A DNA stretch of 64,000 nucleotides from Eledone cirrhosa (lineage: Eukaryota). Below the pieces are notes generated by a model. The model was given only the letters and a program-made list of their open reading frames with translations, was not told the origin of the DNA and did not search any database. Within the stretch, counting starts at the first letter, position 1. Every line of letters starts with the position of its first letter. The stretch spans positions 1,736,001 to 1,800,000 of the forward strand of contig OZ024740.1 of the NCBI GenBank assembly GCA_964016885.1, given 5' to 3'. The position numbers and the translations under genes are program-made. Shown here in pieces: positions 6,150-47,503 of the stretch.

Positions 6150-9100
6150 TGTTGAGGCATGTGGCCTAGTGGTAAGGGTGTTGCACTGACCATCAGGATG
6201 TTGTAGGTTCTATTGCTAGACTTGGTTGTGTGTTGTGTTCTGTGGAGGTGTGTGGCCTAGTGGTAAGGGTGTTGGACTGACCATCAGGATGTTGTAGGTT
6301 CAATTGCTAGACTGTGTTGTGTGTTGTGTTCTGTTGAGGTGTGTGGCCTAGTGGTAAGGGTGTTGGACTGACCATCAAAATGTTGTAGGCTCAATTGCTG
6401 GACTGGGTTGTGTGTTGTGTTTTGTGGAGGTGTGTTGCCTAGTGGTAAGGGTGTTGGACTGACCATCAGGATGTTGTAGGTTCTATTGCTAGACTGGGTT
6501 GTGTGTTGTGTTCTGTGGAGGTGTGTGGCCTAGTGGTAAGGGTGTTGGACTGACCATCAGGATGTTGTAGGTTCAATTGCTAGACTGTGTTGTGTGTTGT
6601 GTTCTGTTAAGGTGTGTGGCCTAGTGGTAAGGGTGTTGGACTGACCATCAGGATGTTGTAGGCTCAATTGCTAGACTGGGTTGTGTGTTCTGTTCTGTGG
6701 AGGTGTGTGGCCTAGTGGTAAGGGTGTTGGACTGACCATCAGGATGTTGTAGGTTCAATTGCTAGACTGGGTTGTGTGTTCTGTTCTGTGGAGGTGTGTG
6801 GCCTAGTGGTAAGGGTGTTGGACTGACCATCAGGATGTTGTAGGCTCAATTGCTGGACTGGGTTGTGTGTTCTGTTCTGTGGAGGTGTGTGGCCTAGTGG
6901 TAAGGGTGTTGGACTGACCATCAGAATGTTGTAGGTTCAATTGCTAGACTGGGTTGTGTGTTGTGTTCTGTGGAGGTGTGTGGCCTAGTGGTAAGGGTGT
7001 TGGACTGACCATCAGAATGTTGTAGGTTCAATTGCTAGACTGGCTTGTGTGTTGTGTTCTGTGGAGGTGTGTGGCCTAGTGGTAAAGGTGTTGGACTGAC
7101 CATCAGAATGTTGTAGGTTCAATTGCTAGACTGGGTTGTGTGTTGTGTTCTGTGGATGTGTGTGGCCTAGTGGTAAGGGTGTTGGACTGACCATCAGAAT
7201 GTTGTAGGTTCAATTGCTAGACTGGGTTGTGTGTTGTGTTCTGTGGAGGTGTGTGGCCTAGTGGTAAGGGTGTTGGACTGACCATCAGAATGTTGTAGGT
7301 TCAGTTGCTAGACTGGGTTGTGTGTTGTGTTCTGTGGAGGTGTGTGGCCTAGTGGTAAGGGTGTTGGACTGACCATCAGAATGTTGTAGGTTCAATTGCT
7401 AGACTGGGTTGTGTGTTCTGTTCTGTGGAGGCGTGTGGCCTAGTGGTAAGGGTGTTGGACTGACCATCAGGATGTTGTAGGTTCAATTGCTAGACTGGCT
7501 TGTGTGTTGTGTTCTGTGGAGGTGTGTGGCCTAGTGGTAAGGGTGTTGGACTGACCATCAGGATGTTGTAGGCTCAATTGCTGGACTGGGTTGTGTGTTC
7601 TGTTCTGTGGAGGCGTGTGGCCTAGTGGTAAGGGTGTTGGACTGACCATCAGGATGTTGTAGGTTCAATTGCTAGACTGGGTTGTGTGTTGTGTTCTGTG
7701 GAGGTGTGTGGTCTAGTGGTAAGGGTGTTGGACTGACCATCAGGATGTTGTAGGCTCAATTGCTAGACTGGGTTGTGTGTTGTGTTCTGTGGAGGTGTGT
7801 GGCCTAGTGGTAAGGGTGTTGGACTGACCATCAGAATGTTGTAGGTTCTATTGCTAGACTGGGTTGTGTGTTGTGTTCTGTGGAGGTGTGTGGTCTAGTG
7901 GTAAGGGTGTTGGACTGACCATCAGGATGTTGTAGGCTCAATTGCTAGACTGGGTTGTGTGTTGTGTTCTGTGGAGGTGTGTGGCCTAGTGGTAAGGGTG
8001 TTGGACTGACCATCAGGATGTTGTAGGCTCAATTGCTAGACTGGGTTGTGTGTTGTGTTCTGTGGAGGTGTGTGGCCTAGTGGTAAGGGTGTTGGACTGA
8101 CCATCAGAATGTTGTAGGTTCAATTGCTAGACTGGGTTGTGTGTTGTGTTCTGTGGAGGTGTGTGGCCTAGTGGTAAGGGTGTTGGACTGACCATCAGGA
8201 TGTTGTAGGCTCAATTGCTGGACTGGGTTGTGTGTTGTGTTTTGTGGAGGTGTGTTGCCTAGTGGTAAGGGTGTTGGACTGACCATCAGGATGTTGTAGG
8301 TTCAATTGCTAGACTGGGTTGTGTGTTGTGTTCTGTGGAGGTGTGTGGCCTAGTGGTAAGGGTGTTGGACTGACCATCAGGATGTTGTAGGCTCAATTGC
8401 TGGACTGGGTTGTGTTGTGTTTTGTGGAGGTGTGTTGCCTAGTGGTAAGGGTGTTGGACTGACCATCAGGATGTTGTAGGTTCAATTGCTAGACTGGGTT
8501 GTGTGTTGTGTTCTGTGGAGGTGTGTGGCCTAGTGGTAAGGGTGTTGGACTGACCATCAGGATGTTGTAGGCTCAATTGCTGGACTGGGTTGTGTTGTGT
8601 TTTGTGGAGGTGTGTTGCCTAGTGGTAAGGGTGTTGGACTGACCATCAGGATGTTGTAGGTTCAATTGCTGGACTGGGTTGTGTGTTGTGTTCTGTGGAG
8701 GTGTGTGGCCTAGTGGTAAGGGTGTTGGACTGACCATCAGGATGTTGTAGGCTCAATTGCTGGACTGGGTTGTGTTATGTGTTCTGTGGAGGTGTGTGGC
8801 CTAGTGGTAAGGGTGTTGGACTGACCATTAGAATGTTGTAGGTTCAATTGCTAGACTGGCTTGTGTGTTGTGTTCTGTGGAGGTGTGTGGCCTAGTGTTA
8901 AAGGTGTTGGACTGACCTTCAGAATGTTGTATGTTCAATTGCTGGACTGGGTTGTGTGTTGTGTTCTGTGGAGGTGTATGGCCTAGTGGTAAGGGTGTTG
9001 GACTGACCATCAGGATGTTGTAGGTTCAATTGCTAGACTGGGTTGTGTGTTGTGTTCTGTGGAGGTGTGTGGCCTAGTGGTAAGGGTGTTGGACTGACCA

Positions 9101-12100
9101 TCAGAATGTTGTAGGTTCAATTGCTAGACTGGGTTGTGTGTTGTGTTCTGTGGAGGTGTGTGGCCTAGTGGTAAGGGTGTTGGACTGACCATCAGAATGT
9201 TGTAGGTTCAATTGGTAGACTGGGTTGTGTGTTGTGTTCTGTGGAGGTGTGTGGCCTAGTGGTAAGGGTGTTGGACTGACCATCAGAATGTTGTAGGTTC
9301 AATTGCTGGACTGGGTTGTGTGTTGTGTTCTGTGGAGGTGTATGGCCTAGTGGTAAGGGTGTTGGACTGACCATCAGAATGTTGTAGGTTCAATTGCTAG
9401 ACTGGGTTGTGTGTTGTGTTCTGTGGACGTGTGTGGCCTAGTGGTAAGGGTGTTGGACTGACCATCAGAATGTTGTAGGCTCAATTGCTGGACTGGGTTG
9501 TGTGTTCTGTTCTGTGGAGGCGTGTGGCCTAGTGGTAAGGGTGTTGGACTGACCATCAGGATGTTGCAGGTTCAATTGCTAGCCTGGGTTGTGTGTTGTG
9601 TTCTGTGGAGGTGTGTGGCCTAGTGGTAAGGGTGTTGGACTGACCATCAGAATGTTGTAGGTTCTATTGCTAGACTGGGTTGTGTGTTGTGTTCTGTGGA
9701 GGTGTGTGGTCTAGTGGTAAGGGTGTTGGACTGACCATCAGGATGTTGTAGGCTCAATTGCTAGACTGGGTTGTGTGTTGTGTTCTGTGGAGGTGTGTGG
9801 CCTAGTGGTAAGGGTGTTGGACTGACCATCAGAATGTTGTAGGTTCTATTGCTAGACTGGGTTGTGTGTTGTGTTCTGTGGAGGTGTGTGGCCTAGTGGT
9901 AAGGGTGTTGGACTGACCATCAGAATGTTGTAGGTTCTATTGCTAGACTGGGTTGTGTGTTGTGTTCTGTGGAGGTGTGTGGCCTAGTGGTAAGGGTGTT
10001 GGACTGACCATCAGGATGTTGTAGGTTCTATTGCTAGACTGGGTTGTGTGTTGTGTTCTGTGGAGGTGTGTGGCCTAGTGGTAAGGGTGTTGGACTGACC
10101 ATCAGGATGTTGTAGGTTCAATTGCTAGACTGGGTTGTGTGTTGTGTTCTGTGGAGGTGTGTGGCCTAGTGGTAAGGGTGTTGGACTGACCATCAGAATG
10201 TTGTAGGTTCTATTGCTAGACTGGGTTGTGTGTTGTGTTCTGTGGAGGTGTGTGGCCTAGTGGTAAGGGTGTTGGAATGACCATCAGGATGTTGTAGGTT
10301 CAATTGCTAGACTGGGTTGTGTGTTGTGTTCTGTGGAAGTGTGTGGCCTAGTGGTAATAGTGTTGGACTGACCATCAGAATGTTGTAGGTTCAATTGCTG
10401 GACTGGGTTGTGTGTTGTGTGCTGTTGAGGTGTGTGGTCTAGTGGTAAGGGTGTTGGACTGACCATCAGGATGTTGTAGGTTCAATTGCTGGACTGGGTT
10501 GTGTGTTGTGTTCTGTGGAAGTGTGTGGCCTAGTGGTAAGGGTGTTGGACTGACCATCAGGATGTTGTAGGGTCAATTGCTGGACTGGGTTGTGTGTTGT
10601 GTTCTGTGGAGGTGTGTGGCCTAGTGGTAAGGGTGTTGGACTGACCATCAGGATGTTGTAGGTTCAATTGCTAGACTGGGTTGTGTGTTGTGTTCTGTGG
10701 AAGTGTGTGGCCTAGTGGTAAGGGTGTTGGACTGACCATCAGGATGTTGTAGGGTCAATTGATGGACTGGGTTCTGTGTTGTGTTCTGTGGAGGTGTGTG
10801 GCCGAGTGGTAAGGGTATTGGACTGACCATCAGGATGTTGTAGGTTCTATTGCTAGACTGGGTTGTGTTCTGTGGAGGTGTGTGGCCTAGTGGTAAGGGT
10901 GTTGGACTGACCATCAGGATGTTGTAGGTTCTATTGCTAGACTGGGTTGTGTGTTGTGTTCTGTGGAGGTGTGTGGTCTAGTGGTAAGGGTGTTGGACTG
11001 ACCATCAGGATGTTGTAGGTTCAATTGCTAGACTGGGTTGTGTGTTGTGTTCTGTGGAGGTGTGTGGCCTAGTGGTAAGGGTGTTGGACTGACCATCAGG
11101 ATGTTGTAGGTTCTATTGCTAGACTGGGTTGTGTGTTGTGTTCTGTTGAGGTGTGTGGCCTAGTGGTAAGGGTGTTGGACTGACCATCAGGATGTTGTAG
11201 GTTCAATTGCTAGACTGGGTTGTGTGTTGTGTTCTGTGGAAGTGTGTGGCCTAGTGGTAAGGGTGTTGGACTGACCATCAGGATGTTGTAGGGTCAATTG
11301 ATGGACTGGGTTCTGTGTTGTGTTCTGTGGAGGTGTGTGGCCGAGTGGTAAGGGTATTGGACTGACCATCAGGATGTTGTAGGTTCTATTGCTAGACTGG
11401 GTTGTGTGTTGTGTTCTGTGGAGGTGTGTGGCCTAGTGGTAAGGGTATTGGACTGACCATCAGGATGTTGTAGGTTCTATTGCTAGACTGGGTTGTGTGT
11501 TGTGTTCTGTGGAGGTGTGTGGCCTAGTGGTAAGGTGTTGGACTGATCATCAGAATGTTGTAGGTTCAATTGCTAGACTGGGTTGTGTGTTGTGTTCTGT
11601 GGAGGTGTGTGGCCTAGTGGTAAGGATGTTGGACTGACCATCATGATGTTGTAGGTTCTATTGCTAGACTGGGTTGTGTGTTGTGTTCTGTGGAGGTGTG
11701 TGGCCTAGTGGCAAGGGTGTTGGACTGACCATCAGGATGTTGTAGGTTCAATTGCTAGACTGGGTTGTGTTCTGTGGAGGTGTGTGGCCTAGTGGTAAGG
11801 GTGTTGGACTGACCATCAGGATGTTGTAGGTTCAATTGCTGGACTGGGTTGTGTTCTGTGGAGGTGTGTGGACTAGTGGTAAGGGTGTTGGACTGACCAT
11901 CAGGATGTTGTAGGTTCTATTGCTAGACTGGGTTGTGTGTTGTGTTCTGTTGAGGTGTGTGGCCTAGTGGTAAGGGTGTTGGACTGACCATCAGGATGTT
12001 GTAGGTTCTATTGCTAGACTGGGTTGTGTGTTGTGTTCTGTGGAGGTGTGTGGTCTAGTGGTAAGGGTGTTGGACTGACCATCAGGATGTTGTAGGTTCA

Positions 12101-13172
12101 ATTGCTAGACTGTGTTGCGTGTTGTGTTCTGTGGAGGTGTGTGGCCTAGTGGTAAGGGTGTTGGACTGACCATCAGGATGTTGTAGGTTCTATTGCTAGA
12201 CTTGGTTGTGTTCTGTGGAGGTGTGTGGCCTAGTGGTAAGGGTGTTGGACTGACCATCAGGATGTTGTAGGTTCAATTGCTAGACTGGGTTGTGTGTTGT
12301 GTTTTGTGGAGGTGTGTGGCCTAGTAGTAAGGGTGTTGGACTGACCATCAGGATGTTGTAGGTTCTATTGCTAGACTTGGTTGTGTTCTGTGGAGGTGTG
12401 TGGCCTAGTGGTAAGGGTGTTGGACTGACCATCAGGATGTTGTAGGTTCTATTGCTAGACTTGGTTGTGTTCTGTGGAGGTGTGTGGCCTAGTGGTAAGG
12501 GTGTTGGACTGACCATCAGGATGTTGTAGTTTCTATTGCTAGACTGGGTTGTGTGTTGTGTTTTGTGGAGGTGTGTGGCCTAGTGGTAAGGGTGTTGGAC
12601 TGACCATCAGGATGTTGTAGGTTCTATTGCTAGACTTGGTTGTGTGTTGTGTTCTGTGGAGGTGTGTGGCCTAGTGGTAAGGGTGTTGGACTGATCATCA
12701 GAATGTTGTAGGTTCAATTGCTGGACTGGGTTGTGTGTTGTGTTCTGTGGAGGTGTGTGGCCTAGTGGTAAGGGTGTTGGACTGACCATCAGGATGTTGT
12801 AGGTTCTATTGCTAGACTGGGTTGTGTGTTGTGTTCTGTGGAGGTGTGTGGCCTAGTGGTAAGGGTGTTGGACTGACCATCAGGATGTTGTAGGTTGTAT
12901 TGCTAGACTGGGTTGTGTGTTGTGTTTTGTGGAGGTATGTTGCCTAGTGGTAAGGGTGTTGGACTGAAGATTATAATGTTGTGTTCTTGAGCAAAATACT
13001 TCATTTCATGTTTCTCCAGTATACTCAGCTGAAAATGAGTACCAGTAATAGGCGGAGATTTAACCCTGCAATGGACTGACATCCTGTCCAGGGTAAGTCT
13101 TGTACTCTGTCACTTCATGCCACAGAAACCAAGATAAGTATCGGCCTGATGAGCCTCCAGGCTCAAGACAGA
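6150..13172 (+). mobile_element. tRNA-derived CORE-like SINE whose head has been amplified into a tandem array
   Basis: Head at ~6154; body resumes at ~12980 (GTTCTTGAGCAAAATACTTCATTTCA...CTCAGCTG...GAAACC...TGAGCCTCCAGGCTCAAGAC), colinear with the single-head copy at 33135-33385. Confidence 0.88.
6154..12968 (+). repeat. 91-bp tandem array (~75 copies) of a SINE tRNA-like head with A-box and near-B-box
   Basis: Unit GAGGTGTGTGGCCTAGTGGTAAGGGTGTTGGACTGACCATCAGGATGTTGTAGGTTCAATTGCTAGACTGGGTTGTGTGTTGTGTTCTGTG; A box TGGCCTAGTGG, B-box-like GGTTCAATTGC. Confidence 0.96.
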
Positions 13173-14989: not shown

Positions 14990-17900
14990 ATGTTATATAC
15001 CAGTGTGTCATTAGTGTTGTGTGGTGTGTGTTATATACCAGTGTGTCATTAGTGTTGTGTGGTGTGTGTTATATACCAGTGTGTCATTAGTGTTGTGTAG
15101 TGTGTGTTATATACCAGTGTGTCATTAGTGTTGTGTGGTGTGTGTTATATACCAGTGTGTCATTAGTGTTGTGTGGTGTGTGTTATATACCAGTGTATCA
15201 TTAGTGTTGTGTGCTGTATGTTATATACCAGTGTGTCATTAGTGTTGTGTGCTGTATGTTATATACCAGTGTGTCATTAGTGTTGTGTGCTGTATGTTAT
15301 ATACCAGTGTGTCATTAGTGTTGTGTGGTGTGTGTTATATACCAGTGTGTCATTAGTGTTGTTGTGTGGTGTGTGTTATATACCAGTGTGTCATTAGTGT
15401 TGTTGTGTGCTCTGTTATATACCAGTGTGTCATTAGTGTTGTTGTGTGGTGTATGTTATATACCAGTGTGTCATTAGTGTTGTTGTGTGGTGTGTGTTAT
15501 ATACCAGTGTGTCATTAGTGTTGTTGTGTGGTGTGTGTTATATACCAGTGTGTCATTAGTGTTGTTGTGTGCTCTGTTATATACCAGTGTGTCATTAGTG
15601 TTGTGTGGTGTATGTTATATACCAGTGTGTCATTAGTGTTGTTGTGTGGTGTGTGTTATATACCAGTGTGTCATTAGTGTTGTGTGGTGTGTGTTATATA
15701 CCAGTGTGTCATTAGTGTTGTGTGGTGTGTGTTATATACCAGTGTGTCATTAGTGTTGTGTGGTGTGTGTTATATACCAGTGTGTCATTAGTGTTGTGTG
15801 GTGTGTGTTATATACCAGTGTGTCATTAGTGTTGTTGTGTGCTCTGTTATATACCAGTGTGTCATTAGTGTTGTTGTGTGGTGTGTGTTATATGCCAGTG
15901 TGTCATTAGTTTTGTGTGCTGTATGTTATATACCAGTGTGTCATTAGTGTTGTTGTGTGCTCTGTTATATACCAGTGTGTCATTAGTGTTGTTGTGTGGT
16001 GTGTGTTATATACCAGTGTGTCATTAGTGTTGTTGTGTGGTGTGTGTTATATACCAGTGTGTCATTAGTGTTGTTGTGTGCTCTGTTATATACCAGTGTG
16101 TCATTAGTGTTGTTGTGTGGTGTATGTTATATACCAGTGTGTCATTAGTGTTGTTGTGTGGTGTGTGTTATATACCAGTGTGTCATTAGTGTTGTTGTGT
16201 GGTGTGTGTTATATACCAGTGTGTCATTAGTGTTGTTGTGTGGTGTGTGTTATATACCAGTGTGTCATTAGTGTTGTTGTGTGCTCTGTTATATACCAGT
16301 GTGTCATTAGTGTTGTGTGGTGTATGTTATATACCAGTGTGTCATTAGTGTTGTTGTGTGGTGTGTGTTATATACCAGTGTGTCATTAGTGTTGTTGTGT
16401 GGTGTGTGTTATATACCAGTGTGTCATTAGTGTTGTTGTGTGCTCTGTTATATACCAGTGTGTCATTAGTGTTGTTGTGTGGTGTGTTATATACCAGTGT
16501 GTCATTAGTGTTGTTGTGTGGTGTGTGTTATATACCAGTGTGTCATTAGTGTTGTTGTGTGCTCTGTTATATACCAGTGTGTCATTAGTGTTGTGTGCTC
16601 TGTTATATACCAGTGTGTCATTAGTGTTGTTGTGTGGTGTGTGTTATATACCAGTGTGTCATTAGTGTTGTGTGCTGTATGTTATATACCAGTGTGTCAT
16701 TAGTGTTGTGTGGTGTGTTATATACCAGTGTGTCATTAGTGTTGTGTGCTCTGTTATATACCAGTGTGTCATTAGTGTTGTTGTGTGCTCTGTTATATAC
16801 CAGTGTGTCATTAGTGTTGTTGTGTGGTGTGTGTTATGTACCAGTGTGTCATTAGTGGTGTTGTGTGCTGTATGTTATATACCAGTGTGTCATTAGTGTT
16901 GTTGTGTGCTCTGTTATATACCAGTGTGTCATTAGTGTTGTGTGGTGTATGTTATATACCAGTGTGTCATTAGTGTTGTTGTGTGCTGTATGTTATATAC
17001 CAGTGTGTCATTAGTGTTGTTGTGTGCTGTATGTTATATACCAGTGTGTCATTAGTGTTGTTGTGTGGTGTGTGTTATATACCAGTGTGTCATTAGTGTT
17101 GTTGTGTGCTCTATGTTATATACCAGTGTGTCATTAGTGTTGTTGTGTGGTGTGTTATATACCAGTGTCATTAGTGTTGTTGTGTGCTGTATGTTATATA
17201 CCAATGTGTCATTAGTGTTGTTGTGTGGTGTGTTATATACCAGTGTGTCATTAGTGTTGTGTCGTGTATGTTATATACCAGTGTGTCATTAGTGTTGTTG
17301 TGTGCTGTATGTTATATACCAGTGTGTCATTAGTGTTGTTGTGTGCTGTATGTTATATACCAGTGTGTCATTAGTGTTGTGTGGTGTATGTTATATACTA
17401 GTGTGTCATTAGTGTTGTTGTGTGGTGTATGTTATATACCAGTGTGTCATTAGTGTTGTGTGCTCTGTTATATACCAGTGTGTCATTAGTGTTGTGTGGT
17501 GTGTGTTATATACCAGTGTGTCATTAGTGTTGTGTGCTCTGTTATATACCAGTGTGTCATTAGTGTTGTGTGGTGTGTGTTATATACCAGTGTGTCATTA
17601 GTGTTGTCTGCTCTGTTATATACCAGTGTGTCATTAGTGTTGTGTGCTCTGTTATATACCAGTGTGTCATTAGAGTTGTTGTGTGCTGTGTGTTATATAC
17701 CAGTGTGTCATTAGTGTTGTGTGCTCTGTTATATACCAGTGTGTCATTAGTGTTGTGTGGTGTGTGTTATATACCAGTGTGTCATTAGTGTTGTCTGCTC
17801 TGTTATATACCAGTGTGTCATTAGTGTTGTGTGCTCTGTTATATACCAGTGTGTCATTAGTGTTGTGTGCTGTATGTTATATACCAGTGTGTCATTAGTG

Positions 17901-20900
17901 TTGTGTGCTGTATGTTATATACCAGTGTGTCATTAGTGTTGTTGTGTGCTCTGTTATATACCAGTGTGTCATTAGTGTTGTTGTGTGGTGTATGTTATAT
18001 GGCAGTGTGTCATTAGTGTTGTTGTGTCGTGTATGTTATATACCAGTGTGTCATTAGTGTTGTGTGGTGTATGTTATATACCAGTGTGTCATTAGTGTTG
18101 TGTGTTGTTATATACCAGTGTGTCATTAGTGTTGTTGTGTGGTGTGTGTTATATACCAGTGTGTCATTAGTGTTGTTGTGTGGTGTGTGTTATATACCAG
18201 TGTGTCATTAGTGTTGTGTGCTGTATGTTATATACCAGTGTGTCATTAGTGTTGTTGTGTGGTGTGTGTTATATACCAGTGTGTCATTAGTGTTGTGTGC
18301 TGTATGTTATATACCAGTGTGTCATTAGTGTTGTGTGCTGTATGTTATATACCAGTGTGTCATTAGTGTTGTTGTGTGGTGTATGTTATATACCAGTGTG
18401 TCATTAGTGTTGTGTCGTGTATGTTATATACCAGTGTGTCATTAGTGTTGTGTGGTGTGTGTTATATACCAGTGTGTCATTAGTGTTGTGTGGTGTGTGT
18501 TATATACCAGTGTGTCATTAGTGTTGTGTGGTGTGTGTTATATACCAGTGTGTCATTAGTGTTGTGTGGTGTGTGTTATATACCAGTGTGTCATTAGTGT
18601 TGTGTGGTGTGTGTTATATACCAGTGTGTCATTAGTGTTGTGTGGTGTGTGTTATATACCAGTGTGTCATTAGTGTTGTGTGGTGTGTGTTATATACCAG
18701 TGTGTCATTAGTGTTGTGTGGTGTGTGTTATATACCAGTGTGTCATTAGTGTTGTGTGGTGTGTGTTATATACCAGTGTGTCATTAGTGTTGTGTGGTGT
18801 GTTATATACCAGTGTGTCATTAGTGTTGTGTGGTGTGTGTTATATACCAGTGTGTCATTAGTGTTGTGTGGTGTGTGTTATATACCAGTGTGTCATTAGT
18901 GTTGTGTGGTGTGTGTTATATACCAGTGTGTCATTAGTGTTGTGTGGTGTGTGTTATATACCAGTGTGTCATTAGTGTTGTGTGGTGTGTGTTATATACC
19001 AGTGTGTCATTAGTGTTGTGTGGTGTGTGTTATATACCAGTGTGTCATTAGTGTTGTGTGGTGTGTGTTATATACCAGTGTGTCATTAGTGTTGTGTGGT
19101 GTGTGTTATATACCAGTGTGTCATTAGTGTTGTGTGGTGTGTGTTATATACCAGTGTGTCATTAGTGTTGTGTGGTGTGTGTTATATACCAGTGTGTCAT
19201 TAGTGTTGTGTGGTGTGTGTTATATACCAGTGTGTCATTAGTGTTGTGTGGTGTGTGTTATATACCAGTGTGTCATTAGTGTTGTGTGGTGTGTGTTATA
19301 TACCAGTGTGTCATTAGTGTTGTGTGGTGTGTGTTATATACCAGTGTGTCATTAGTGTTGTGTGGTGTGTGTTATATACCAGTGTGTCATTAGTGTTGTG
19401 TGGTGTGTGTTATATACCAGTGTGTCATTAGTGTTGTGTGGTGTGTTATATACCAGTGTGTCATTAGTGTTGTGTGGTGTGTGTTATATACCAGTGTGTC
19501 ATTAGTGTTGTGTGGTGTGTGTTATATACCAGTGTGTCATTAGTGTTGTGTGGTGTGTGTTATATACCAGTGTGTCATTAGTGTTGTGTGGGGTGTGTTA
19601 TATACCAGTGTGTCATTAGTGTTGTGTGGTGTGTGTTATATACCAGTGTGTCATTAGTGTTGTGTGGTGTGTGTTATATACCAGTGTGTCATTAGTGTTG
19701 TGTGGTGTGTGTTATATACCAGTGTGTCATTAGTGTTGTGTGGTGTGTGTTATATACCAGTGTGTCATTAGTGTTGTCTGCTCTGTTATATACCAGTGTG
19801 TCATTAGTGTTGTGTGCTCTGTTATATACCAGTGTGTCATTAGAGTTGTTGCGTGCTGTGTGTTATATACCAGTGTGTCATTAGTGTTGTGTGCTCTGTT
19901 ATATACCAGTGTGTCATTAGTGTTGTGTGCTGTATGTTATATACCAGTGTGTCATTAGTGTTGTGTGCTGTATGTTATATACCAGTGTGTCATTAGTGTT
20001 GTTGTGTGCTCTGTTATATACCAGTGTGTCATTAGTGTTGTTGTGTGGTGTATGTTATATGCCAGTGTGTCATTAGTGTTGTTGTGTCGTGTATGTTATA
20101 TACCAGTGTGTCATTAGTGTTGTGTGGTGTATGTTATATACCAGTGTGTCATTAGTGTTGTGTGCTCTGTTATATACCAGTGTGTCATTAGTGTTGTGTG
20201 CTCTGTTATATACCAGTGTGTCATTAGAGTTGTGTGCTCTGTTATATACCAGTGTGTCATTAGTGTTGTTGTGTGGTGTGTTATATACCAGTGTGTCATT
20301 AGTGTTGTGTGCTCTGTTATATACCAGTGTGTCATTAGTGTTGTGTGGTGTATGTTATATACCAGTGTGTCATTAGTGTTGTGTGCTGTATGTTATATAC
20401 CAGTGTGTCATTAGTGTTGTTGTGTGCTCTGTTATATACCAGTGTGTCATTAGTGTTGTTGTGTGGTGTATGTTATATACCAGTGTGTCATTAGTGTTGT
20501 TGTGTGGTGTATGTTATATACCAGTGTGTCATTAGTGTTGTTGTGTCGTGTATGTTATATACCAGTGTGTCATTAGTGTTGTGTGGTGCATGTTATATAC
20601 CAGTGTGTCATTAGTGTTGTGTGCTGTTATATACCAGTGTGTCATTAGTGTTGTTGTGTGGTGTGTGTTATATACCAGTGTGTCATTAGTGTTGTTGTGT
20701 GGTGTGTGTTATATACCAGTGTGTCATTAGTGTTGTGTGCTCTGTTATATACCAGTGTGTCATTAGTGTTGTGTACTGTATGTTATATACCAGTGTGTCA
20801 TTAGTGTTGTGTGGTGTGTTATATATCAGTATGTCATTAGCGTTTTTGTGTGGTGTATGTTATATACCAGTGTGTCATTAGTGTTGTGTGCTGTATGATA

Positions 20901-32485: not shown

Positions 32486-33134
32486 ACATAATAATGGTTT
32501 CTAATTTAGGTACAAGACCAACAATTTTAGGGGAGAGGAAGTTGATTAAATTGACCCCGGTACATTACTGGTACTTTATTTTATCACCCTCACACCACCC
32601 ACCACCCATAATAATAATTTTGTACATTGACATGAACAAGGCCAGTAGTTTTTTGGCCTCGAAATTTACGAAAACAATATTTTAAAAGATTATCATTGAA
32701 AACAACAAAAACGGTTTCTGATTTAGGCACAAGACCAACAATTTGGTGGGAGGGGAAAATGTTCTTTATCCCTAGCTTGACCACCACCACCATCACCACT
32801 GCTAACATTACCACCACCAACCTCCCCATCACTACTAACATTGCCACCACCATCACCACCACTAACATTACCACCACCACCACCATCACCACTACCACTG
32901 CTAACATTACCACCACCATCAGTCAGTACATAATCACATTAGACATACTTAAGAGGATCAATTTATACAAAATATCAATGAAAATCCTGTAAAAATATAG
33001 ATTTCCTTACTACGAAATATGGAATATATTCAGTGATCGTTGATAAACTCCTACGTCTATAGACATTTGGTAGTTATTACGTCAGGCAATAATACCTTGA
33101 AGTATTAGTTTGGTCCATTTTCTGTTATAAAGTC

Positions 33135-33386
33135 GAGGTGTGTGGCCTAGTGGTAAGGATGTTTGACTTATGATCATAATGTTGTGGGTTGGATTCCTGG
33201 ATTGGGTTGTGTGTTATGTTCTTGAGCAAGACATTTCATTTCACATTGCTCCAGTATACTCAGCTGTAAATGAGTACCATCAGTAGCTGGGGGTTTAACC
33301 TTCTGAAGGACTGCCTGTACTCTCAGTTGCTTCACTTCATGAAACCAGGATAATCACCGACCTAATGAGCCTTCTGGCTTAAGACT
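33135..33386 (+). mobile_element. Full-length tRNA-derived CORE-like SINE (tail type A)
   Basis: A box TGGCCTAGTGG, core GTTCTTGAGCAAGACATTTC; flanked by a direct repeat TTTCTGTTATAAAGTC (~33119-33134 and ~33399-33414), a probable TSD. Confidence 0.88.
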
Positions 33387-33469
33387 CTTTTTTTTAGATT
33401 TCTGTTATAAAGTCAACTTCACCTTTCATTCATCTGGAGTCAATTTAATTGACCAAACCCCTTCTAAAA

Positions 33470-33665
33470 TAATTGTTTCTACATTTGGCACAAGGCCAGC
33501 AATTAACCAGTGTATTACTGGTACTTTATTTTATCGACCTCATAAGGATGAAAGGCAAAGTTAACCTCGGCGGGATTTGAACTTGGATCATAAAGGGCCG
33601 TAACTCTATACGTCAAAGCATGGCGTCTGACTCTCTACCGATACTGCCAATCCACCGCCCTAATA
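33470..33665 (-). mobile_element. Full-length Meta-domain-like tRNA SINE
   Basis: Reverse complement has B-box-like GTTCAAATCCCGCC, then CTTTGCCTTTCATCCTTATGAGGTCGATAAAATAAAGTACCAG and an (ATT)n tail. Confidence 0.85.
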
Positions 33666-35659: not shown

Positions 35660-38600
35660 GGGGACATGACTGGCTTAGTGGTAAGGGTGTTGGACTTATG
35701 ATCAAAAAGGATTTTATGATAAATAACTAGATAGCCAGATTTATGATGAAAGAGTAAGTCATATTACTAAATCACAAGTTCTTTTTTTAAAAGAAATTCA
35801 AATATGTCAATAAAAACACACATGCACATACATATGTAAAGAACATAATATTGTGGACTCGATTCCTGGGTTGTGTGTTGTGTTCTTAAGCAAAACACTT
35901 CATTTTATGATGCTCCAGTATATTCAATTGAAATTGGGTATCAGCAATAGCTGGGGGTTTATCCCTGCGATGGACTGTCCAGGGAGAGTCTTGTACTCTG
36001 TCTGGACAGTCCATTGCAGGGTTACTTGTTTTGTACTCTCTCTGGACAGTCCATCACAGGGTTACTTGTCTTGTAATCTCTCTGGACAGTCCATCACAGG
36101 GTTACTTGTCTTTTACTCTCTCTGGACTGTCCATCACAGGGTTACTTGTCTTGTACTCTCTCTGGACTGTCCATCACAGGGTTACTTGTCTTGTAATCTC
36201 TCTGGACAGTCCATCACAGGGTTACTTGTCTTGTACTCTCTCTGGACTGTCCATCACAGGGTTACTTGTCTTGTACTCTCTCTGGACAGTCCATCACAGG
36301 GTTACTTGTCTTGTAATCTCTCTGGACAGTCCATCACAGGGTTACTTGTCTTGTAATCTCTCTGGACAGTCCATCACAGGGTTACTTGTCTTGTACTCTC
36401 TCTGGACAGTCCATTGCAGGGTTACTTTCTTGTACTCTCTCTGGACAGTCCATTGCAGGGTTACTTGTTTTGTACTCTCTCTGGACAGTCCATCACAGGG
36501 TTACTTGTCTTGTACTCTCTCTGGACAGTCCATCACAGGGTTACTTGTTTTGTACTCTCTCTGGACAGTCCATCACAGGGTTACTTGTCTTGTACTCTCT
36601 CTGGACAGTCCATCACAGGGTTACTTGTCTTGTACTCTCTCTGGACAGTCCATCACAGGGTTACTTGTCTTGTACTCTCTCTGGACTGTCCATCACAGGG
36701 TTACTTGTCTTGTACTCTCTCTGGACAGTCCATCACAGGGTTACTTGTCTTGTACTCTCTCTGGACAGTCCATCACAGGGTTACTTGTCTTGTACTCGCT
36801 CTGGACAGTCTATTGCAGGGTTACTTTCTTGTACTCTCTCTGGACAGTCCGTCACAGGGTTATTTGTCTTGTACTCTCTCTGGACAGTCCATCACAGGGT
36901 TACTTGTCTTGTACTCTCTCTGGACAGTCCATTGCAGGGTTACTTTCTTGTACTCTCTCTGGACAGTCCATCACAGGGTTACTTGTCTTGTACTCTCTCT
37001 GGACAGTCCATTGCAGGGTTATTTGTCTTGTACTCTCTCTGGACAGTCCATTGCAGGGTTACTTGTCTTGTACTCTCTCTGGACAGTCCATTGCAGGGTT
37101 ACTTTCTTGTACTCTCTCTGGACAGTCCATCACAGGGTTACTTGTCTTGTACTCTCTCTGGACAGTCCATTGCAGGGTTATTTGTCTTGTACTCTCTCTG
37201 GACAGTCCATCACAGGGTTACTTGTCTTGTACTCTCTCTGGACAGTCCATTGCAGGGTTACTTTCTTGTACTCTCTCTGGACAGTCCATCACAGGGTTAC
37301 TTGTCTTGTACTCTCTCTGGACAGTCCATCACAGGGTTACTTGTCTTGTACTCTCTCTGGACAGTCCATCACAGGGTTATTTGTCTTGTACTCTCTCTGG
37401 ACAGTCCATTGCAGGGTTACTTGTCTTGTACTCTCTCTGGACAGTCCATCACAGGGTTACTTGTCTTGTACTCTCTCTGGACAGTCCATCACAGGGTTAC
37501 TTGTCTTGTACTCTCTCTGGACAGTCCATTGCAGGGTTACTTGTCTTGTACTCTCTCTGGACAGTCCATCACAGGGTTACTTGTCTTGTACTCTCTCTGG
37601 ACAGTCCATTGCAGGGTTACTTGTCTTGTACTCTCTCTGGACAGTCCATCACAGGGTTACTTGTCTTGTACTCTCTCTGGACAGTCCATCACAGGGTTAC
37701 TTGTCTTGTACTCTCTCTGGACAGTCCATTGCAGGGTTACTTGTCTTGTACTCTCTCTGGACAGTCCATTGCAGGGTTACTTGTCTTGTACTCTCTCTGG
37801 ACAGTCCATCACAGGGTTACTTGTCTTGTACTCTCTCTGGACAGTCCATCACAGGGTTACTTGTCTTGTACTCTCTCTGGACAGTCCATCACAGGGTTAC
37901 TTGTCTTGTACTCTCTCTGGACAGTCCATCACAGGGTTACTTGTCTTGTACTCTCTCTGGACAGTCCATCACAGGGTTACTTGTCTTGTACTCTCTCTGG
38001 TCAGTCCATCACAGGGTTACTTGTCTTGTACTCTCTCTGGACAGTCCATCACAGGGTTACTTGTCTTGTACTCTCTCTGGTCAGTCCATCACAGGGTTAC
38101 TTGTCTTGTACTCTCTCTGGACAGTCCATCACAGGGTTACTTGTCTTGTACTCTCTCTGGACAGTCCATCACAGGGTTACTTGTCTTGTACTCTCTCTGG
38201 ACAGTCCATCACAGGGTTACTTGTCTTGTACTCTCTCTGGACAGTCCATTGCAGGGTTACTTGTCTTGTACTCTCTCTGGACAGTCCATCACAGGGTTAC
38301 TTGTCTTGTACTCTCTCTGGACAGTCCATCACAGGGTTACTTGTCTTGTACTCTCTCTGGACAGTCCATCACAGGGTTACTTGTCTTGTACTCTCTCTGG
38401 TCAGTCCATCACAGGGTTACTTGTCTTGTACTCTCTCTGGACAGTCCATCACAGGGTTACTTGTCTTGTACTCTCTCTGGTCAGTCCATCACAGGGTTAC
38501 TTGTCTTGTACTCTCTCTGGACAGTCCATCACAGGGTTACTTGTCTTGTACTCTCTCTGGACAGTCCATCACAGGGTTACTTGTCTTGTACTCTCTCTGG

Positions 38601-39846
38601 ACAGTCCATCACAGGGTTACTTGTCTTGTACTCTCTCTGGACAGTCCATTGCAGGGTTACTTGTCTTGTACTCTCTCTGGACAGTCCATCACAGGGTTAC
38701 TTGTCTTGTACTCTCTCTGGACAGTCCATTGCAGGGTTACTTGTCTTGTACTCTCTCTGGACAGTCCATCACAGGGTTACTTGTCTTGTACTCTCTCTGG
38801 ACAGTCCATCACAGGGTTACTTGTCTTGTACTCTCTCTGGACAGTCCATCACAGGGTTACTTGTCTTGTACTCTCTCTGGACAGTCCATTGCAGGGTTAC
38901 TTGTCTTGTACTCTCTCTGGACAGTCCATTGCAGGGTTACTTGTCTTGTACTCTCTCTGGACAGTCCATCACAGGGTTACTTGTCTTGTACTCTCTCTGG
39001 ACAGTCCATCACAGGGTTACTTGTCTTGTACTCTCTCTGGACAGTCCATTGCAGGGTTACTTGTCTTGTACTCTCTCTGGACAGTCCATCACAGGGTTAC
39101 TTGTCTTGTACTCTCTCTGGACAGTCCATCACAGGGTTACTTGTCTTGTACTCTCTCTGGACAGTCCATCACAGGGTTACTTGTCTTGTACTCTCTCTGG
39201 ACAGTCCATCACAGGGTTACTTGTCTTGTACTCTCTCTGGTCAGTCCATCACAGGGTTACTTGTCTTGTACTCTCTCTGGACAGTCCATCACAGGGTTAC
39301 TTGTCTTGTACTCTCTCTGGTCAGTCCATCACAGGGTTACTTGTCTTGTACTCTCTCTGGACAGTCCATCACAGGGTTACTTGTCTTGTACTCTCTCTGG
39401 ACAGTCCATCACAGGGTTACTTGTCTTGTACTCTCTCTGGACAGTCCATCACAGGGTTACTTGTCTTGTACTCTCTCTGGTCAGTCCATCACAGGGTTAC
39501 TTGTCTTGTACTCTCTCTGGACAGTCCATCACAGGGTTACTTGTCTTGTACTCTCTCTGGTCAGTCCATCACAGGGTTACTTGTCTTGTACTCTCTCTGG
39601 ACAGTCCATCACGGGGTTACTTGTCTTGTACTCTCTCTGGACAGTCCATCACAGGGTTACTTGTCTTGTACTCTCTCTGGACAGTCCATCACAGGGTTAC
39701 TTGTCTTGTACTCTCTCTGGACAGTCCATCACAGGGTTACTTGTCTTGTACTCTCTCTGGACAGTCCATTGCAGGGTTACTTGTCTTGTACTCCCAGTCA
39801 CTTAATACCACAGAAACCGAGGTAAACACCGGCCTTATGAACCTCC
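35660..39846 (+). mobile_element. CORE-like SINE (tail A) interrupted by a 40-bp array
   Basis: Head 35665-35703, body 35850-36000, tail resumes at 39792 (CAGTCACTTAATACCACAGAAACCG...ATGAACCTCC), as in 13108-13160. Confidence 0.85.
35988..39793. repeat. 40-bp tandem array (~95 copies) with an inverted+direct SINE-derived unit
   Basis: Unit TCTGGACAGTCCATCACAGGGTTACTTGTCTTGTACTCTC. Confidence 0.97.
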
Positions 39847-40155
39847 AACAATTGTGTTTTCAAAACAGTGATTGGGAACCAACCATATTTTACTTATAGG
39901 AAAAAAGATCTCTGCATGATTGGTGGAGCAATTAGCAGTAAAAGATATAGGAAGGAAGAGAGTGGTGGGGTGGGGGGGGGGGAAACATACTGAAATTAAG
40001 GTAGGGAGTCAGACAGACAGACTAACTGATAACTTTGAATCACATGATGTGTTTCCTGCAATCTTCCCTTCTGAGAAATTACCACCTCAGCCCTCATCCT
40101 CCCCTAATTGCCACACCCACACACCAGTGTTGTTAACATGCTTCAACAGTGCACA

Positions 40156-41944: not shown

Positions 41945-41994
<50 letters not shown>

Positions 41995-42005
41995 ATATAT
42001 ATATA

Positions 42006-42792: not shown

Positions 42793-42799
42793 ATATATA

Positions 42800-42993: not shown

Positions 42994-43223
42994 ATATATA
43001 TATAAATTAGTGGGTGTTAGTATAATACTTATTCTGTCTCTACTTTTCTTTAACCTAAATTCAGAAGGAAAGGAAACATTTTAAGTTATATGTGTGTGCA
43101 TATATATGTGTGCGTGTATGTATGTATGTATGTATGTGTGTGTGTGTGTGTGCATGTGTATATGTGTTTGCGTGTGTATATATATATTTGTGTATGCATG
43201 TGTGCTTGTGTACATGTGTATAT

Positions 43224-46200
43224 AATAATAATAAAATCATTGTGTACAATGTTCAGGTGCACTACAACTCATCAAAGGTGCATGTATAGTACATAGAATA
43301 ATATACAAATGTCAGGGAAGTGAATAGTGTATGAGTCATGATATACATGTGTGCATGTGTATGGAGGGGGAATATTAGGTGTAATGTTGGTGAATCTTAG
43401 GAGGCATGGAGGTTTTAAAGGATGCAGTGTCTCGACAGCTAACAACTGATGCAGGTAGTTTGTTCCATGGGGGTTTTAAAGGATGCAGTGTCTCGACAGC
43501 TAACAACTGATGCAGGTAGTTTGTTCCATGGGGGTTTTAAAGGATGCAGTGTCTCGACAGCTAACAACTGATGCAGGTAGTTTGTTCCATGGGGGTTTTA
43601 AAGGATGCAGTGTCTCGACAGCTAACAACTGATGCAGGTAGTTTGTTCCATGGGGGTTTTAAAGGATGCAGTGTCTCGACAGCTAACAACTGATGCAGGT
43701 AGTTTGTTACATGGGGGTTTTAAAGGATGCAGTGTCTCGACAGCTAACAACTGATGCAGGTAGTTTGTTCCATGGAGGTTTTAAAGGATGCAGTGTCTCG
43801 ACAGCTAACAACTGATGCAGGTAGTTTGTTCCATGGGGGTTTTAAAGGATGCAGTGTCTCGACAGCTAACAACTGATGCAGGTAGTTTGTTACATGGGGG
43901 TTTTAAAGGATGCAGTGTCTCGACAGCTAACAACTGATGCAGGTAGTTTGTTCCATGGAGGTTTTAAAGGATGCAGTGTCTCGACAGCTAACAACTGATG
44001 CAGGTAGTTTGTTACATGGGGGTTTTAAAGGATGCAGTGTCTCGACAGCTAACAACTGATGCAGGTAGTTTGTTCCATGGGGGTTTTAAAGGATGCAGTG
44101 TCTCGACAGCTAACAACTGATGCAGGTAGTTTGTTCCATGGAGGTTTTAAAGGATGCAGTGTCTCGACAGCTAACAACTGATGCAGGTAGTTTGTTCCAT
44201 GGGGGTTTTAAAGGATGCAGTGTCTCGACAGCTAACAACTGATGCAGGTAGTTTGTTCGATGGAGGTTATAAAGGATGCAGTGTCTCGACAGCTAACAAC
44301 TGATGCAGGTAGTTTGTTCCATGGAGGTTTTAAAGGATGCAGTGTCTCGACAGCTAACAACTGATGTAGGTAGTTTGTTCCATGGGGGTTTTAAAGGATG
44401 CAGTGTCTCGACAGCTAACAACTGATGCAGGTAGTTTGTTCCATGGGGGTTTTAAAGGATGCAGTGTCTCGACAGCTAACAACTGATGTAGGTAGTTTGT
44501 TACATGGGGGTTTTAAAGGATGCAGTGTCTCGACAGCTAACAACTGATGCAGGTAGTTTGTTCCATGGGGGTTTTAAAGGATGCAGTGTCTCGACAGCTA
44601 ACAACTGATGCAGGTAGTTTGTTCCATGGGGGTTTTAAAGGATGCAGTGTCTCGACAGCTAACAACTGATGCAGGTAGTTTGTTCCATGGAGGTTTTAAA
44701 GGATGCAGTGTCTCGACAGCTAACAACTGATGCAGGTAGTTTGTTCCATGGAGGTTTTAAAGGATGCAGTGTCTCGACAGCTAACAACTGATGCAGGTAG
44801 TTTGTTCCATGGAGGTTTTAAAGGATGCAGTGTCTTGACAGCTAACAACTGATGCAGGTAGTTTGTTCCATGGAGGTTTTAAAGGATGCAGTGTCTCGAC
44901 AGCTAACAACTGATGCAGGTAGTTTGTTCCATGGGGGTTTTAAAGGATGCAGTGTCTCGACAGCTAACAACTGATGCAGGTAGTTTGTTCCATGGAGGTT
45001 TTAAAGGATGCAGTGTCTCGACAGCTAACAACGGATGCAGGTAGTTTGTTACATGGGGGTTTTAAAGGATGTAGTGTCTCGACAGCTAACAACTGATGCA
45101 GGTAGTTTGTTCCATGGAGGTTTTAAAGGATGCAGTGTCTCGACAGCTAACAACTGATGCAGGTAGTTTGTTCGATGGAGGTTTTAAAGGATGCAGTGTC
45201 TCGACAGCTAACAACTGGTGCAGGTAGTTTGTTCCATGGAGGTTTTAAAGGATGCAGTGTCTCGACAGCTAACAACTGATGCAGGTAGTTTGTTCGATGG
45301 AGGTTTTAAAGGATGCAGTGTCTCGACAGCTAACAACTAATGCAGGTAGTTTGTTACATGGGGGTTTTAAAGGATGCAGTGTCTCGACAGCTAACAACTG
45401 ATGCAGGTAGTTTGTTCGATGGAGGTTTTAAAGGATGCAGTGTCTCGACAGCTAACAACTGGTGCAGGTAGTTTGTTCCATGGAGGTTTTAAAGGATGCA
45501 GTGTCTCGACAGCTAACAACTGATGCAGGTAGTTTGTTCCATGGGGGTTTTAAAGGATGCAGTGTCTCGACAGCTAACAACTGATGCAGGTAGTTTGTTA
45601 CATGGGGGTTTTAAAGGATGCAGTGTCTCGACAGCTAACAACTGATGCAGGTAGTTTGTTCCATGGAGGTTTTAAAGGATGCAGTGTCTCGACAGCTAAC
45701 AACTGATGCAGGTAGTTTGTTCCATGGGGGTTTTAAAGGATGCAGTGTCTCGACAGCTAACAACTGATGCAGGTAGTTTGTTACATGGGGGTTTTAAAGG
45801 ATGCAGTGTCTCGACAGCTAACAACTGATGCAGGTAGTTTGTTCCATGGAGGTTTTAAAGGATGCAGTGTCTCGACAGCTAACAACTGATGCAGGTAGTT
45901 TGTTACATGGGGGTTTTAAAGGATGCAGTGTCTCGACAGCTAACAACTGATGCAGGTAGTTTGTTCCATGGGGGTTTTAAAGGATGCAGTGTCTCGACAG
46001 CTAACAACTGATGCAGGTAGTTTGTTCCATGGAGGTTTTAAAGGATGCAGTGTCTCGACAGCTAACAACTGATGCAGGTAGTTTGTTCGATGGAGGTTAT
46101 AAAGGATGCAGTGTCTCGACAGCTAACAACTGATGCAGGTAGTTTGTTCCATGGAGGTTTTAAAGGATGCAGTGTCTCGACAGCTAACAACTGATGTAGG

Positions 46201-47503
46201 TAGTTTGTTCCATGGGGGTTTTAAAGGATGCAGTGTCTCGACAGCTAACAACTGATGCAGGTAGTTTGTTCCATGGGGGTTTTAAAGGATGCAGTGTCTC
46301 GACAGCTAACAACTGATGTAGGTAGTTTGTTACATGGGGGTTTTAAAGGATGCAGTGTCTCGACAGCTAACAACTGATGCAGGTAGTTTGTTCCATGGGG
46401 GTTTTAAAGGATGCAGTGTCTCGACAGCTAACAACTGATGCAGGTAGTTTGTTCCATGGGGGTTTTAAAGGATGCAGTGTCTCGACAGCTAACAACTGAT
46501 GCAGGTAGTTTGTTCCATGGAGGTTTTAAAGGATGCAGTGTCTCGACAGCTAACAACTGATGCAGGTAGTTTGTTCCATGGAGGTTTTAAAGGATGCAGT
46601 GTCTCGACAGCTAACAACTGATGCAGGTAGTTTGTTCCATGGAGGTTTTAAAGGATGCAGTGTCTTGACAGCTAACAACTGATGCAGGTAGTTTGTTCCA
46701 TGGAGGTTTTAAAGGATGCAGTGTCTCGACAGCTAACAACTGATGCAGGTAGTTTGTTCCATGGGGGTTTTAAAGGATGCAGTGTCTCGACAGCTAACAA
46801 CTGATGCAGGTAGTTTGTTCCATGGAGGTTTTAAAGGATGCAGTGTCTCGACAGCTAACAACTGATGCAGGTAGTTTGTTACATGGGGGTTTTAAAGGAT
46901 GTAGTGTCTCGACAGCTAACAACTGATGCAGGTAGTTTGTTCCATGGAGGTTTTAAAGGATGCAGTGTCTCGACAGCTAACAACTGATGCAGGTAGTTTG
47001 TTCGATGGAGGTTTTAAAGGATGCAGTGTCTCGACAGCTAACAACTGGTGCAGGTAGTTTGTTCCATGGAGGTTTTAAAGGATGCAGTGTCTCGACAGCT
47101 AACAACTGATGCAGGTAGTTTGTTCGATGGAGGTTTTAAAGGATGCAGTGTCTCGACAGCTAACAACTAATGCAGGTAGTTTGTTTGATGGAGGTTTTAA
47201 AGGGTGCAGTGTCTCGACAGCTAACAACTGATACAGGCAGTTTGCTCCATGGAGGTTTTAAAGGATGCAGTGTCTCGACAGCTAACTGATGCAAGTAGTT
47301 TGTTCCATTGAGGTTTTAAAGGATGCAGTGTCTAGAAAGTTAACATGTTCCATGCTTCAGCAACTCTGAGCATGAAAAAATGTTTCCGAAAGTCATGAGA
47401 GCCGTGCTGTTTTTTTACTTTGTTGGCATGTCCACGTGTGATAGACACATGTGGACATGCCCACGTGTGTTAGACACATGGAAATCAAAAAGGTACTCAG
47501 GGT
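43224..47503 (-). mobile_element. CR1-like LINE 3' fragment containing a 61-bp array
   Basis: 43224-43405 and 47345-47503 are reverse complements of ~50605-50790 and ~50420-50550. Confidence 0.92.
43406..47343. repeat. 61-bp tandem array (~64 copies) derived from the CR1 ORF2 C-terminus
   Basis: Unit CATGGRGGTTTTAAAGGATGCAGTGTCTCGACAGCTAACAACTGATGCAGGTAGTTTGTTC is the reverse complement of ~50547-50607 (NKLPASVVS...). Confidence 0.97.

What the first reader, a model, noticed from the sequence alone, without database searches (positions are those of the whole stretch)
6150..47503. Transposons converted in place into kilobase satellites: four independent events, plus early intermediates
Seen: the 91-bp (6.2-13.0 kb), 45-bp (31.4-32.5 kb), 40-bp (36.0-39.8 kb) and 61-bp (43.4-47.3 kb) arrays each lie inside a SINE or CR1 copy. 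Each unit is a segment of that element, the element resumes on the other side of the array, and unamplified sibling copies occur in the same window (33135, 33470, 51470, 50545). Junctions use short microhomologies (TGTT, CATG). Low-copy intermediates also occur: 17 bp x4 at ~51163, 112 bp x2 at 60986, and a single fold-back at ~47427. Known: TE-derived satellites exist in many taxa. Inference: this density suggests a sequence-independent local amplification process inflating this region, which may also explain the orphan arrays.
Basis: partly seen in the sequence, partly recalled or inferred. Interest (0 to 1): 0.75.

Follow-up and report, generated by a model that had tools for sequence, protein, structure and literature searches.

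The report
Satellites homing into transposon copies
Four long tandem repeats here are built from pieces of jumping elements, but three of them recur with the same joint in other copies of those elements elsewhere in the genome and at least two were likely copied in from another site by DNA repair, while only the fourth, made from a flipped piece, was likely born on the spot.

Summary
The 61-bp LINE joint occurs 21,241 times genome-wide and the 45-bp SINE-head joint 14,119 times. The 91-bp unit has one other home, an array of about 73 kb in a different SINE copy: consensus 0 of 91 differences and shared minor variants, but host bodies only 150 of 181 alike. In a young LINE subfamily, array joints carry the older subfamily's letters (17 of 17), which points to import. 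Only the 40-bp array is unique (77 of 77 matches); its unit is an inverted, fold-back copy bearing its host's own deletion. The '112 x2 intermediate' is carried by its LINE (11,241 joints). Array density is a chromosome-end property (0.54 vs 0.04). Best reading: chromosome ends amplify any seed, and seeds collinear with a dispersed element likely spread between its copies by ectopic recombination. Known kind (reptile SINE satellites, Drosophila Rsp-like spread). This scan noted the 61- and 45-bp spread before, on other DNA of this genome.

The parts
6151..12967 (+). 91-bp array (75 units) of a SINE 5' head; likely received from a second locus (contig C1660)
12930..13185 (+). Host SINE remainder: last head keeps family-type letters absent from the array, has a 32-bp deletion, then the body
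31225..31373 (-). Body and tail of the second SINE family, host of the 45-bp array
   Evidence: 176/194 to sibling
31374..32487 (-). 45-bp array (25 units) of that SINE's 5' head; member of a genome-wide family; last unit lacks the 8 joint-forming bases
35862..35999 (+). Host SINE of the 40-bp array, with a private 8-bp deletion and the small hairpin where the fold-back starts
35988..39793 (+). 40-bp array (95 units): 30-base inverted SINE piece plus a short forward piece; single-locus
39783..39847 (+). Same SINE resumes
43222..43404 (-). 3' end of a LINE (CR1-like; clade label recalled from motifs), host of the 61-bp array
43405..47345 (-). 61-bp array (65 units) of the last ORF2 codons; consensus equals the subfamily consensus; 30-unit block duplicated; last unit decayed with a 16-bp deletion
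47346..47505 (-). LINE resumes; holds a unique 29-bp fold-back insertion at about 47427-47475, the same class of event as the 40-bp seed
33132..33385 (+). Unamplified sibling SINE (91-bp and 40-bp family)
33468..33663 (-). Unamplified sibling SINE (45-bp family)
49102..50790 (+). Unamplified sibling LINE (reverse transcriptase domain), single unit at 50546-50606; belongs to the younger subfamily
51463..51756 (-). Unamplified sibling SINE
51163..51233 (+). 16 bp x4.4 perfect repeat; no recognised element on either side
60986..61217 (-). 112 bp x2 in the 3' end of a second LINE (RTE-like, label recalled); inherited with the element
1..4973 (+). Orphan 37-bp array (starts about 8 kb left of the window); single-locus
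14991..28069 (+). Abutting orphan 38-bp (single-locus, tested) and 30-bp (not tested genome-wide) arrays
28335..30645 (+). Orphan 57-bp array; single-locus

Best explanation
This window lies in a chromosome-end zone rich in kilobase minisatellites, and its transposon-derived arrays likely arrived by three routes: local birth by a fold-back copying error (40-bp array), copying of an existing array into a resident element copy by ectopic recombination (91-bp array, probably the 61-bp one, possibly the 45-bp one), and a duplication carried by the element itself (112 x2). Shown: unit anatomy, genome-wide counts, host-versus-unit mismatch, end enrichment. Inferred: a break in or near a resident SINE or LINE copy is repaired on a homologous copy that already holds an array (strand invasion and copying across several joints, or integration of an excised circle), so the host gains donor units between its own two ends; unequal exchange then lengthens the array. 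A unit collinear with the family has thousands of landing pads and spreads; the inverted 40-bp unit and the orphan units have none and stay at one locus.
For: 91 bp: its diagnostic 25-mer matches 551 times, the first 100 listed only here and on C1660, with no contig in between; consensus of 74 vs 423 units differs at 0 of 91, four minor variants are shared (positions 47, 61, 68 and a short-deletion form), host bodies agree at 150 of 181, flanks share only interspersed-repeat hits, the best of 11 single heads in my loci is 84% alike, and this window's last head is family-type while C1660's is array-type. 61 bp: arrays occur in both starred subfamilies of a 70-row flank tree. In young-subfamily hosts 47 of 50 single units start AG, yet 17 of 17 inner units of the 3 flank-found arrays and 26 of 27 in L061 start GA, 0 AG. 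Genome-wide GA-type joints 21,241 vs AG-type 37, against 2,801 and 915 host starts. Two arrays (L208, L209) mix both joint types. Arrays are in 12 of 36 distal vs 1 of 32 interior hosts (p 0.0016), so they arise after insertion. This window's host flank is 8 of 170 from consensus and its last unit decayed, yet no difference is fixed in 63 units. 40 bp: unique, carries the host's 8-bp deletion. Orphans single-locus.
Against: Local births at the same 61-bp joint do occur: L207 (3 units share a private change), L274, L090, L110, so an identical joint alone proves nothing. For this window's 61-bp array the case is modest: 11 of 57 single copies also have no change in positions 16-61. Per-unit divergence in small arrays equals that of single copies (p 0.88), which fits early birth equally well. 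The GA letters could be templated from the hairpin's other arm. Mosaic sites in old-subfamily arrays showed no linkage to flank markers, so that test was inconclusive. The position test on position-ordered hosts alone gives p 0.064 (8 of 30 vs 1 of 21), and the 35-Mb cut was chosen. The 45-bp array here carries its host's rare variant next to the joint in 25 of 25 units, which fits local birth. C1660 is unplaced. No donor-recipient event was seen in time.
Confidence: 0.6

Rival explanations
1. Each array was born where it sits; identical joints recur because the same weak points (a hairpin-flanked CATG, the SINE 5' end) slip again and again.
For: True for the 40-bp array and the orphans. AG-type joints exist at 6 places; L207, L274, L090 look local. 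The 61-bp unit is the loop of a 10-bp stem, perfect in the subfamily with more arrays (8 of 30 vs 0 of 30 hosts). Alternative 42- and 50-bp joints in the same SINE head show repeated births.
Against: Cannot give a 91-bp consensus identical in two hosts that are 83% alike, with shared minor variants. Predicts AG joints in young-subfamily hosts; 0 of 17 and 0 of 27 seen. Predicts host-private changes fixed in arrays: 3 fixed changes in 14 arrays vs 1.86 per single copy.
Confidence: 0.2
2. The repeats were made during retrotransposition: array-bearing master elements, or reverse transcriptase jumping back, delivered seeds that later grew.
For: Shown for the 112-bp duplication (11,241 joints, mostly single and dispersed; 7 of 7 loci read sit in the same LINE end). 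The 61-bp duplication changes only the last 9 or so ORF2 residues. Small arrays are as diverged as single copies. Outer ends of 45-bp arrays are cut at varied points.
Against: Array hosts are not a clade (15 label changes, at least 4 forced by starred branches; no flank column linked to arrays after 243 and 169 tests). Strong end bias; 0 of 29 mostly interior SINE hosts carry arrays while six 45-bp arrays lie within about 0.5 Mb of the window. Young hosts have own-type flanks on both sides but old-type joints.
Confidence: 0.15
3. The arrays are assembly artefacts.
For: Only that tandem arrays are hard to assemble; no listed short-read contig bridged the last 91-bp joint.
Against: Units vary and show block structure (30-unit period). 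In run X18 a contig spans the 40-bp fold-back joint without mismatch and summed depth over the unit is 833-892 vs 8.4-8.9 on the flank, about 100-fold (contig depth is a rough measure and X18 may be the assembled sample).
Confidence: 0.02

Closest known systems
SINE-derived satellites sSat1-3 of squamates (PMC10702118; parts 1-4 of 5 of the text read, supplements not seen)
   Same: Tandem units from part of a SINE, one end running into the SINE, same unit at many loci, units more alike than the SINEs (89% vs 64% in cobra), subtelomeric bias, few to about 1000 units.
   Different: That paper proposes initial duplication by unequal recombination, a library and concerted evolution; in the parts read it does not test transfer between SINE copies. 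Here units are shorter (40-91 bp), LINEs take part, and host-versus-joint letters point to transfer.
Spread of Rsp-like satellite into 1.688 clusters in Drosophila simulans and mauritiana (PMC7403614; 12 passages read)
   Same: A rare microhomology joint is born once and then seeds new clusters at loci that already hold homologous DNA, by interlocus conversion or circle reintegration; one fixed and one variable junction.
   Different: There the landing pads are satellite clusters on one chromosome; here they are single SINE and LINE copies across many chromosomes, and the satellite is a piece of the landing pad itself.
TE-derived minisatellites of the human genome (PMC3389668; abstract and part 1 of 2 of Results read)
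   Same: 23% of human minisatellites come from transposons; single- and multi-locus classes; element-borne internal repeats (LTR12) treated apart, like the 112 x2 here.
   Different: Human cases average 2.3-2.4 units and 185 of 5,932 clusters are multi-locus; here 25-95 units in the window and several hundred elsewhere.
Fold-back templated inverted duplications at DNA breaks in yeast (PMC11724301; abstract only)
   Same: Short (about 5-34 bp) inverted duplications made by fold-back at a microhomology; matches the 30-base inverted piece of the 40-bp unit and the 47427 insertion.
   Different: There single events at an induced break; here one such event seeded a 95-unit array.

Membership tests
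Transposon-derived satellite (sSat type) | Unit is part of an interspersed element | tested here: met
   for the 40-bp unit mostly in inverted orientation
Transposon-derived satellite (sSat type) | A terminal unit runs on into the parent element | tested here: met
   one side for 91 and 45 bp, both sides for 40 and 61 bp
Transposon-derived satellite (sSat type) | Same unit at many loci, more uniform than the hosts | tested here: met
   61 bp and 45 bp many loci; 91 bp two loci; not met by the 40-bp array
Transposon-derived satellite (sSat type) | Subtelomeric bias | tested here: met
   0.54 vs 0.04 array cover, 10 vs 10 stretches of one chromosome; 12 of 36 vs 1 of 32 hosts
tRNA-derived SINE (hosts) | tRNA-like head | tested here: inconclusive
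   Rfam tRNA match at 33143-33200 only 14.7 bits, E 5.5; SINE label rests on size, copy number and recalled A/B-box motifs
LINE (hosts) | Reverse transcriptase ORF in a sibling copy | tested here: met
   RVT_1, E 6e-22 and 1e-32
CR1 and RTE clades | Placement on an RT tree with named references | not tested
   labels recalled from C-terminal motifs seen
Homology-seeded satellite spread (Rsp-like type) | Same joint in hosts of different lineage, with donor letters discordant with the host | tested here: met
Homology-seeded satellite spread (Rsp-like type) | Landing pad present without the array at the orthologous site in relatives | not testable with these tools
   no relative genomes held; other runs did not cover the unique flanks
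Homology-seeded satellite spread (Rsp-like type) | Units on extrachromosomal circles | not testable with these tools
   needs circle sequencing
Element-borne internal repeat | Carriers form the element lineage and are dispersed as low-copy forms | tested here: met
   112 x2; not met by the 61-bp arrays

The most novel reading that the evidence does not exclude
Minisatellite arrays behave as non-coding homing elements: once a joint is born in one SINE or LINE copy, repair copies multi-unit tracts into other copies of that family across chromosomes, so the retrotransposon family is the satellite's dispersal network, and whether a new repeat spreads depends on its staying collinear with the family (the inverted 40-bp unit could not). 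This one window holds a two-locus transfer with a visible direction, two genome-wide families and a non-spreading control.
Probability: 0.5. Interest if true: 0.7.

Novelty: new variant of a known kind. Interest (0 to 1): 0.5.

Why it matters
How a new satellite gets from one locus to many is an open question; circles, conversion and transposon carriage are all proposed and rarely separable. Here subfamily-diagnostic letters next to the joint separate birth from import locus by locus, over thousands of hosts, and the 91-bp pair gives a tractable donor-recipient case. It also warns that an array nested in a transposon with both ends intact does not show birth in place. Birth of satellites from transposons, by itself, is already well documented.

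Tried and rejected
Array-bearing master clade for the 61-bp family: not found (70 rows; seven array stretches without a usable left flank and two rows with an indel at the unit start left out). Mosaic-marker test in old-subfamily arrays: sites 38, 51 and 30 are mixed in 7, 6 and 4 of 14 arrays but are not linked to flank markers, so hypermutability is not excluded. The TT variant as a marker of 45-bp arrays: rejected, 329 host starts carry it. C1660 as an allele of this locus: its flanks hit only interspersed repeats in the window and 100 kb either side; not excluded for sequence beyond that. Reads across the last 91-bp joint and an empty allele: no listed contig bridged it, inconclusive. Other species' runs and RAD reads did not cover the unique flanks. 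Parents for orphan units: none in 1.36 Mb of fetched loci, a small sample of a 3.0-Gb genome. Rfam support for a tRNA head: below threshold. Target-site duplications could not be read because tails and targets are both (AAT)n-like. Literature: searches listed no paper on such arrays in cephalopods; two searches listed none on array transfer between transposon copies; the library lacks most subscription papers, and supplements were not seen.
Full report
Setting. The window is C1:1,736,001-1,800,000 of a 3.0-Gb genome, 1.7 Mb from the start of a 443-Mb chromosome. That it is an octopod is recalled from the look of its SINEs and stated in earlier notes of the scan; I did not test it. Minisatellites of 15 bp or longer unit cover 59% of the window, 44% of the 200 kb around it, 54% of ten 10-kb samples within 30 Mb of either end of C1 and 4% of ten interior samples (p 0.002; one chromosome only). 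The density is thus typical of the chromosome end, not special to this window. At least 59% of the window's 22.7 kb of non-tandem DNA is interspersed repeat, so arrays inside transposons are expected.

Observation. The four arrays stand at the given places beside the given elements and siblings. The corrections are listed under the observation check: the 40-bp unit is mostly inverted; the 91- and 45-bp arrays are 5' heads; CATG is a joint overlap only for the 61-bp unit; the small repeat is 16 bp.

40-bp array: born here. A DNA search found one candidate region and all 77 exact joint matches lie in the window. Thirty bases of the unit are the reverse complement of the host SINE just upstream (27 of 30), including an 8-base deletion that the four sibling copies aligned lack. 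The switch begins at a small hairpin (5-base stem, 7-base loop) and returns a few bases upstream, leaving a short direct repeat 40 bases apart. I infer a fold-back template switch, as described at yeast breaks (PMC11724301, abstract), then ordinary expansion. A short-read contig spans this joint without mismatch and depth over the unit is about 100 times the flank. The unique 29-bp insertion at 47427 has the same anatomy.

91-bp array: likely received. Its diagnostic 25-mer has 551 matches, all on one strand; the first 65 are here and the list then jumps to unplaced contig C1660 (451 not listed), where the array runs from about 23.3 to 96.0 kb. Consensus of 74 window units and 423 C1660 units (from overlapping stretches) differs at 0 of 91 and four minor variants are shared, while the host bodies agree at 150 of 181 and the flanks share only interspersed-repeat hits. 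The best of 11 single heads in my loci is 84% alike; a pattern for the unit's 3' half plus the body found five single heads, none with the diagnostic stretch. Here the first unit starts and the last unit ends with host letters that the array lacks; on C1660 both terminal units are array-type. I infer that a multi-unit tract moved from C1660's lineage into this SINE.

61-bp array: one of a large family. The joint has 21,241 exact matches, with six other arrays within 2.6 Mb among the first 100 listed. Each array with a visible left end sits in its own LINE 3' end, apart from nested insertions; sizes run from 2 units to more than 28 kb. To avoid selecting on the unit I sampled hosts by flank or by position: 7 of 29 and 3 of 29 nearest relatives of the host and of the sibling carry arrays; 8 of 30 distal old-type hosts, 0 of 30 young-type hosts, 1 of 21 interior old-type hosts. 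Adding the 17 flank-found old-type hosts on C1-C4 (12 on other contigs left out) gives 12 of 36 distal vs 1 of 32 interior. Array hosts are scattered over the tree, in both starred subfamilies. The telling test: young-subfamily units start AG (47 of 50 singles), yet inner units of their arrays start GA (17 of 17 in three flank-found arrays, 3 indel-shifted units dropped; 26 of 27 in L061, which was found by unit and so is biased) and often carry old-type letters at positions 30 and 51 (8 and 6 of 17 vs 11 and 5 of 50). AG joints total 37 at six places; of four such arrays read, two are pure AG (L207 clearly local) and two mix both types. So local births happen, but imports seem the majority in young hosts. 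For the window's own array the evidence is weaker: host flank 8 of 170 from consensus, decayed last unit, no fixed difference in 63 units, but 11 of 57 singles are also unchanged.

45-bp array: family member, route open. The common joint has 14,119 matches, with six arrays within about 0.5 Mb of the window. The window's variant joint has 49 matches, 21 here and the rest at eight other places. All 25 units carry the host-type variant, which favours local birth; but the host's own end lacks the 8 bases that form the joint, which favours import or later loss. 0 of 29 other hosts with that variant, 27 of them interior, have arrays.

Intermediates and orphans. The 112-bp joint has 11,241 matches, mostly single and dispersed, with a few 3-5 unit runs; 7 of 7 loci read are the same LINE end. 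It is inherited, not a local early stage. The 37-, 38- and 57-bp orphans are single-locus; the 30-, 44-, 34- and 50-bp ones were only compared with 1.36 Mb of fetched DNA, without a hit elsewhere.

Mechanism. Shown: three of four transposon-collinear units are multi-locus; the inverted unit and three orphans are single-locus; joints can carry letters foreign to their host; arrays favour chromosome ends. Inferred: high recombination and repair near the ends lengthens any tandem seed, and ectopic repair between homologous element copies moves arrays. Conversion and circle integration cannot be told apart here. Confidence 0.6; hotspot rebirth 0.2; retrotransposition-made seeds 0.15; artefact 0.02.

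Comparison. It belongs to the transposon-derived satellites of the squamate sSat type (PMC10702118) and works like the Drosophila Rsp-like spread (PMC7403614), with single transposon copies as landing pads; two defining tests of that model (empty orthologous sites, circles) could not be run. Earlier notes of this scan reached the same reading for the 61- and 45-bp families on other DNA; I had formed it before the look-up and count the notes as no evidence. New in this window are the two-locus 91-bp transfer with a likely direction, the inverted unit as a non-spreading control, and the element-borne 112-bp case. Verdict: new variant of a known kind, interest 0.5.

Noticed in passing
window 58814-59195: A SINE head and body followed about 90 bases later by its near-perfect inverted copy; a larger fold-back or an inverted insertion.
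   Followed up: no
window 42819-43004 and 62890-63150: Two palindromic elements; the first has about 80% copies in other loci, MITE-like.
   Followed up: partly
window 55241-56944 and 61392-62738 (minus): Two close copies of a LINE ORF, open for 450-520 residues; the first gives reverse transcriptase plus a weak PHD-finger match. Likely a young family.
   Followed up: partly
window 20900-21100: The 38-bp orphan array grades directly into the 30-bp array, sharing a motif; possibly one satellite born from the edge of another. The first six arrays are all G/T-rich on the same strand.
   Followed up: no
L156 5015-5090: A 45-bp family array 70 kb left of the window ends in a perfect palindrome of about 55 bases, another fold-back at an array edge.
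   Followed up: no
L068 1500-1740 and L086 1323-3497: The same SINE head also forms arrays with about 42-bp and 50-bp units and other joints.
   Followed up: partly
L064 (C1660 1-10000): A 25-bp satellite holding a telomere-like TAACCCT motif, suggesting that C1660 is subtelomeric.
   Followed up: no
L164 3350-8524, L176 3153-5991: Further kilobase arrays whose units resemble the SINE 3' end and the second LINE's 3' end (by eye).
   Followed up: no
L193-L206 (C4 99.14-99.17 Mb): A LINE end with a 5-unit array is itself repeated five times at 5-9 kb spacing.
   Followed up: partly
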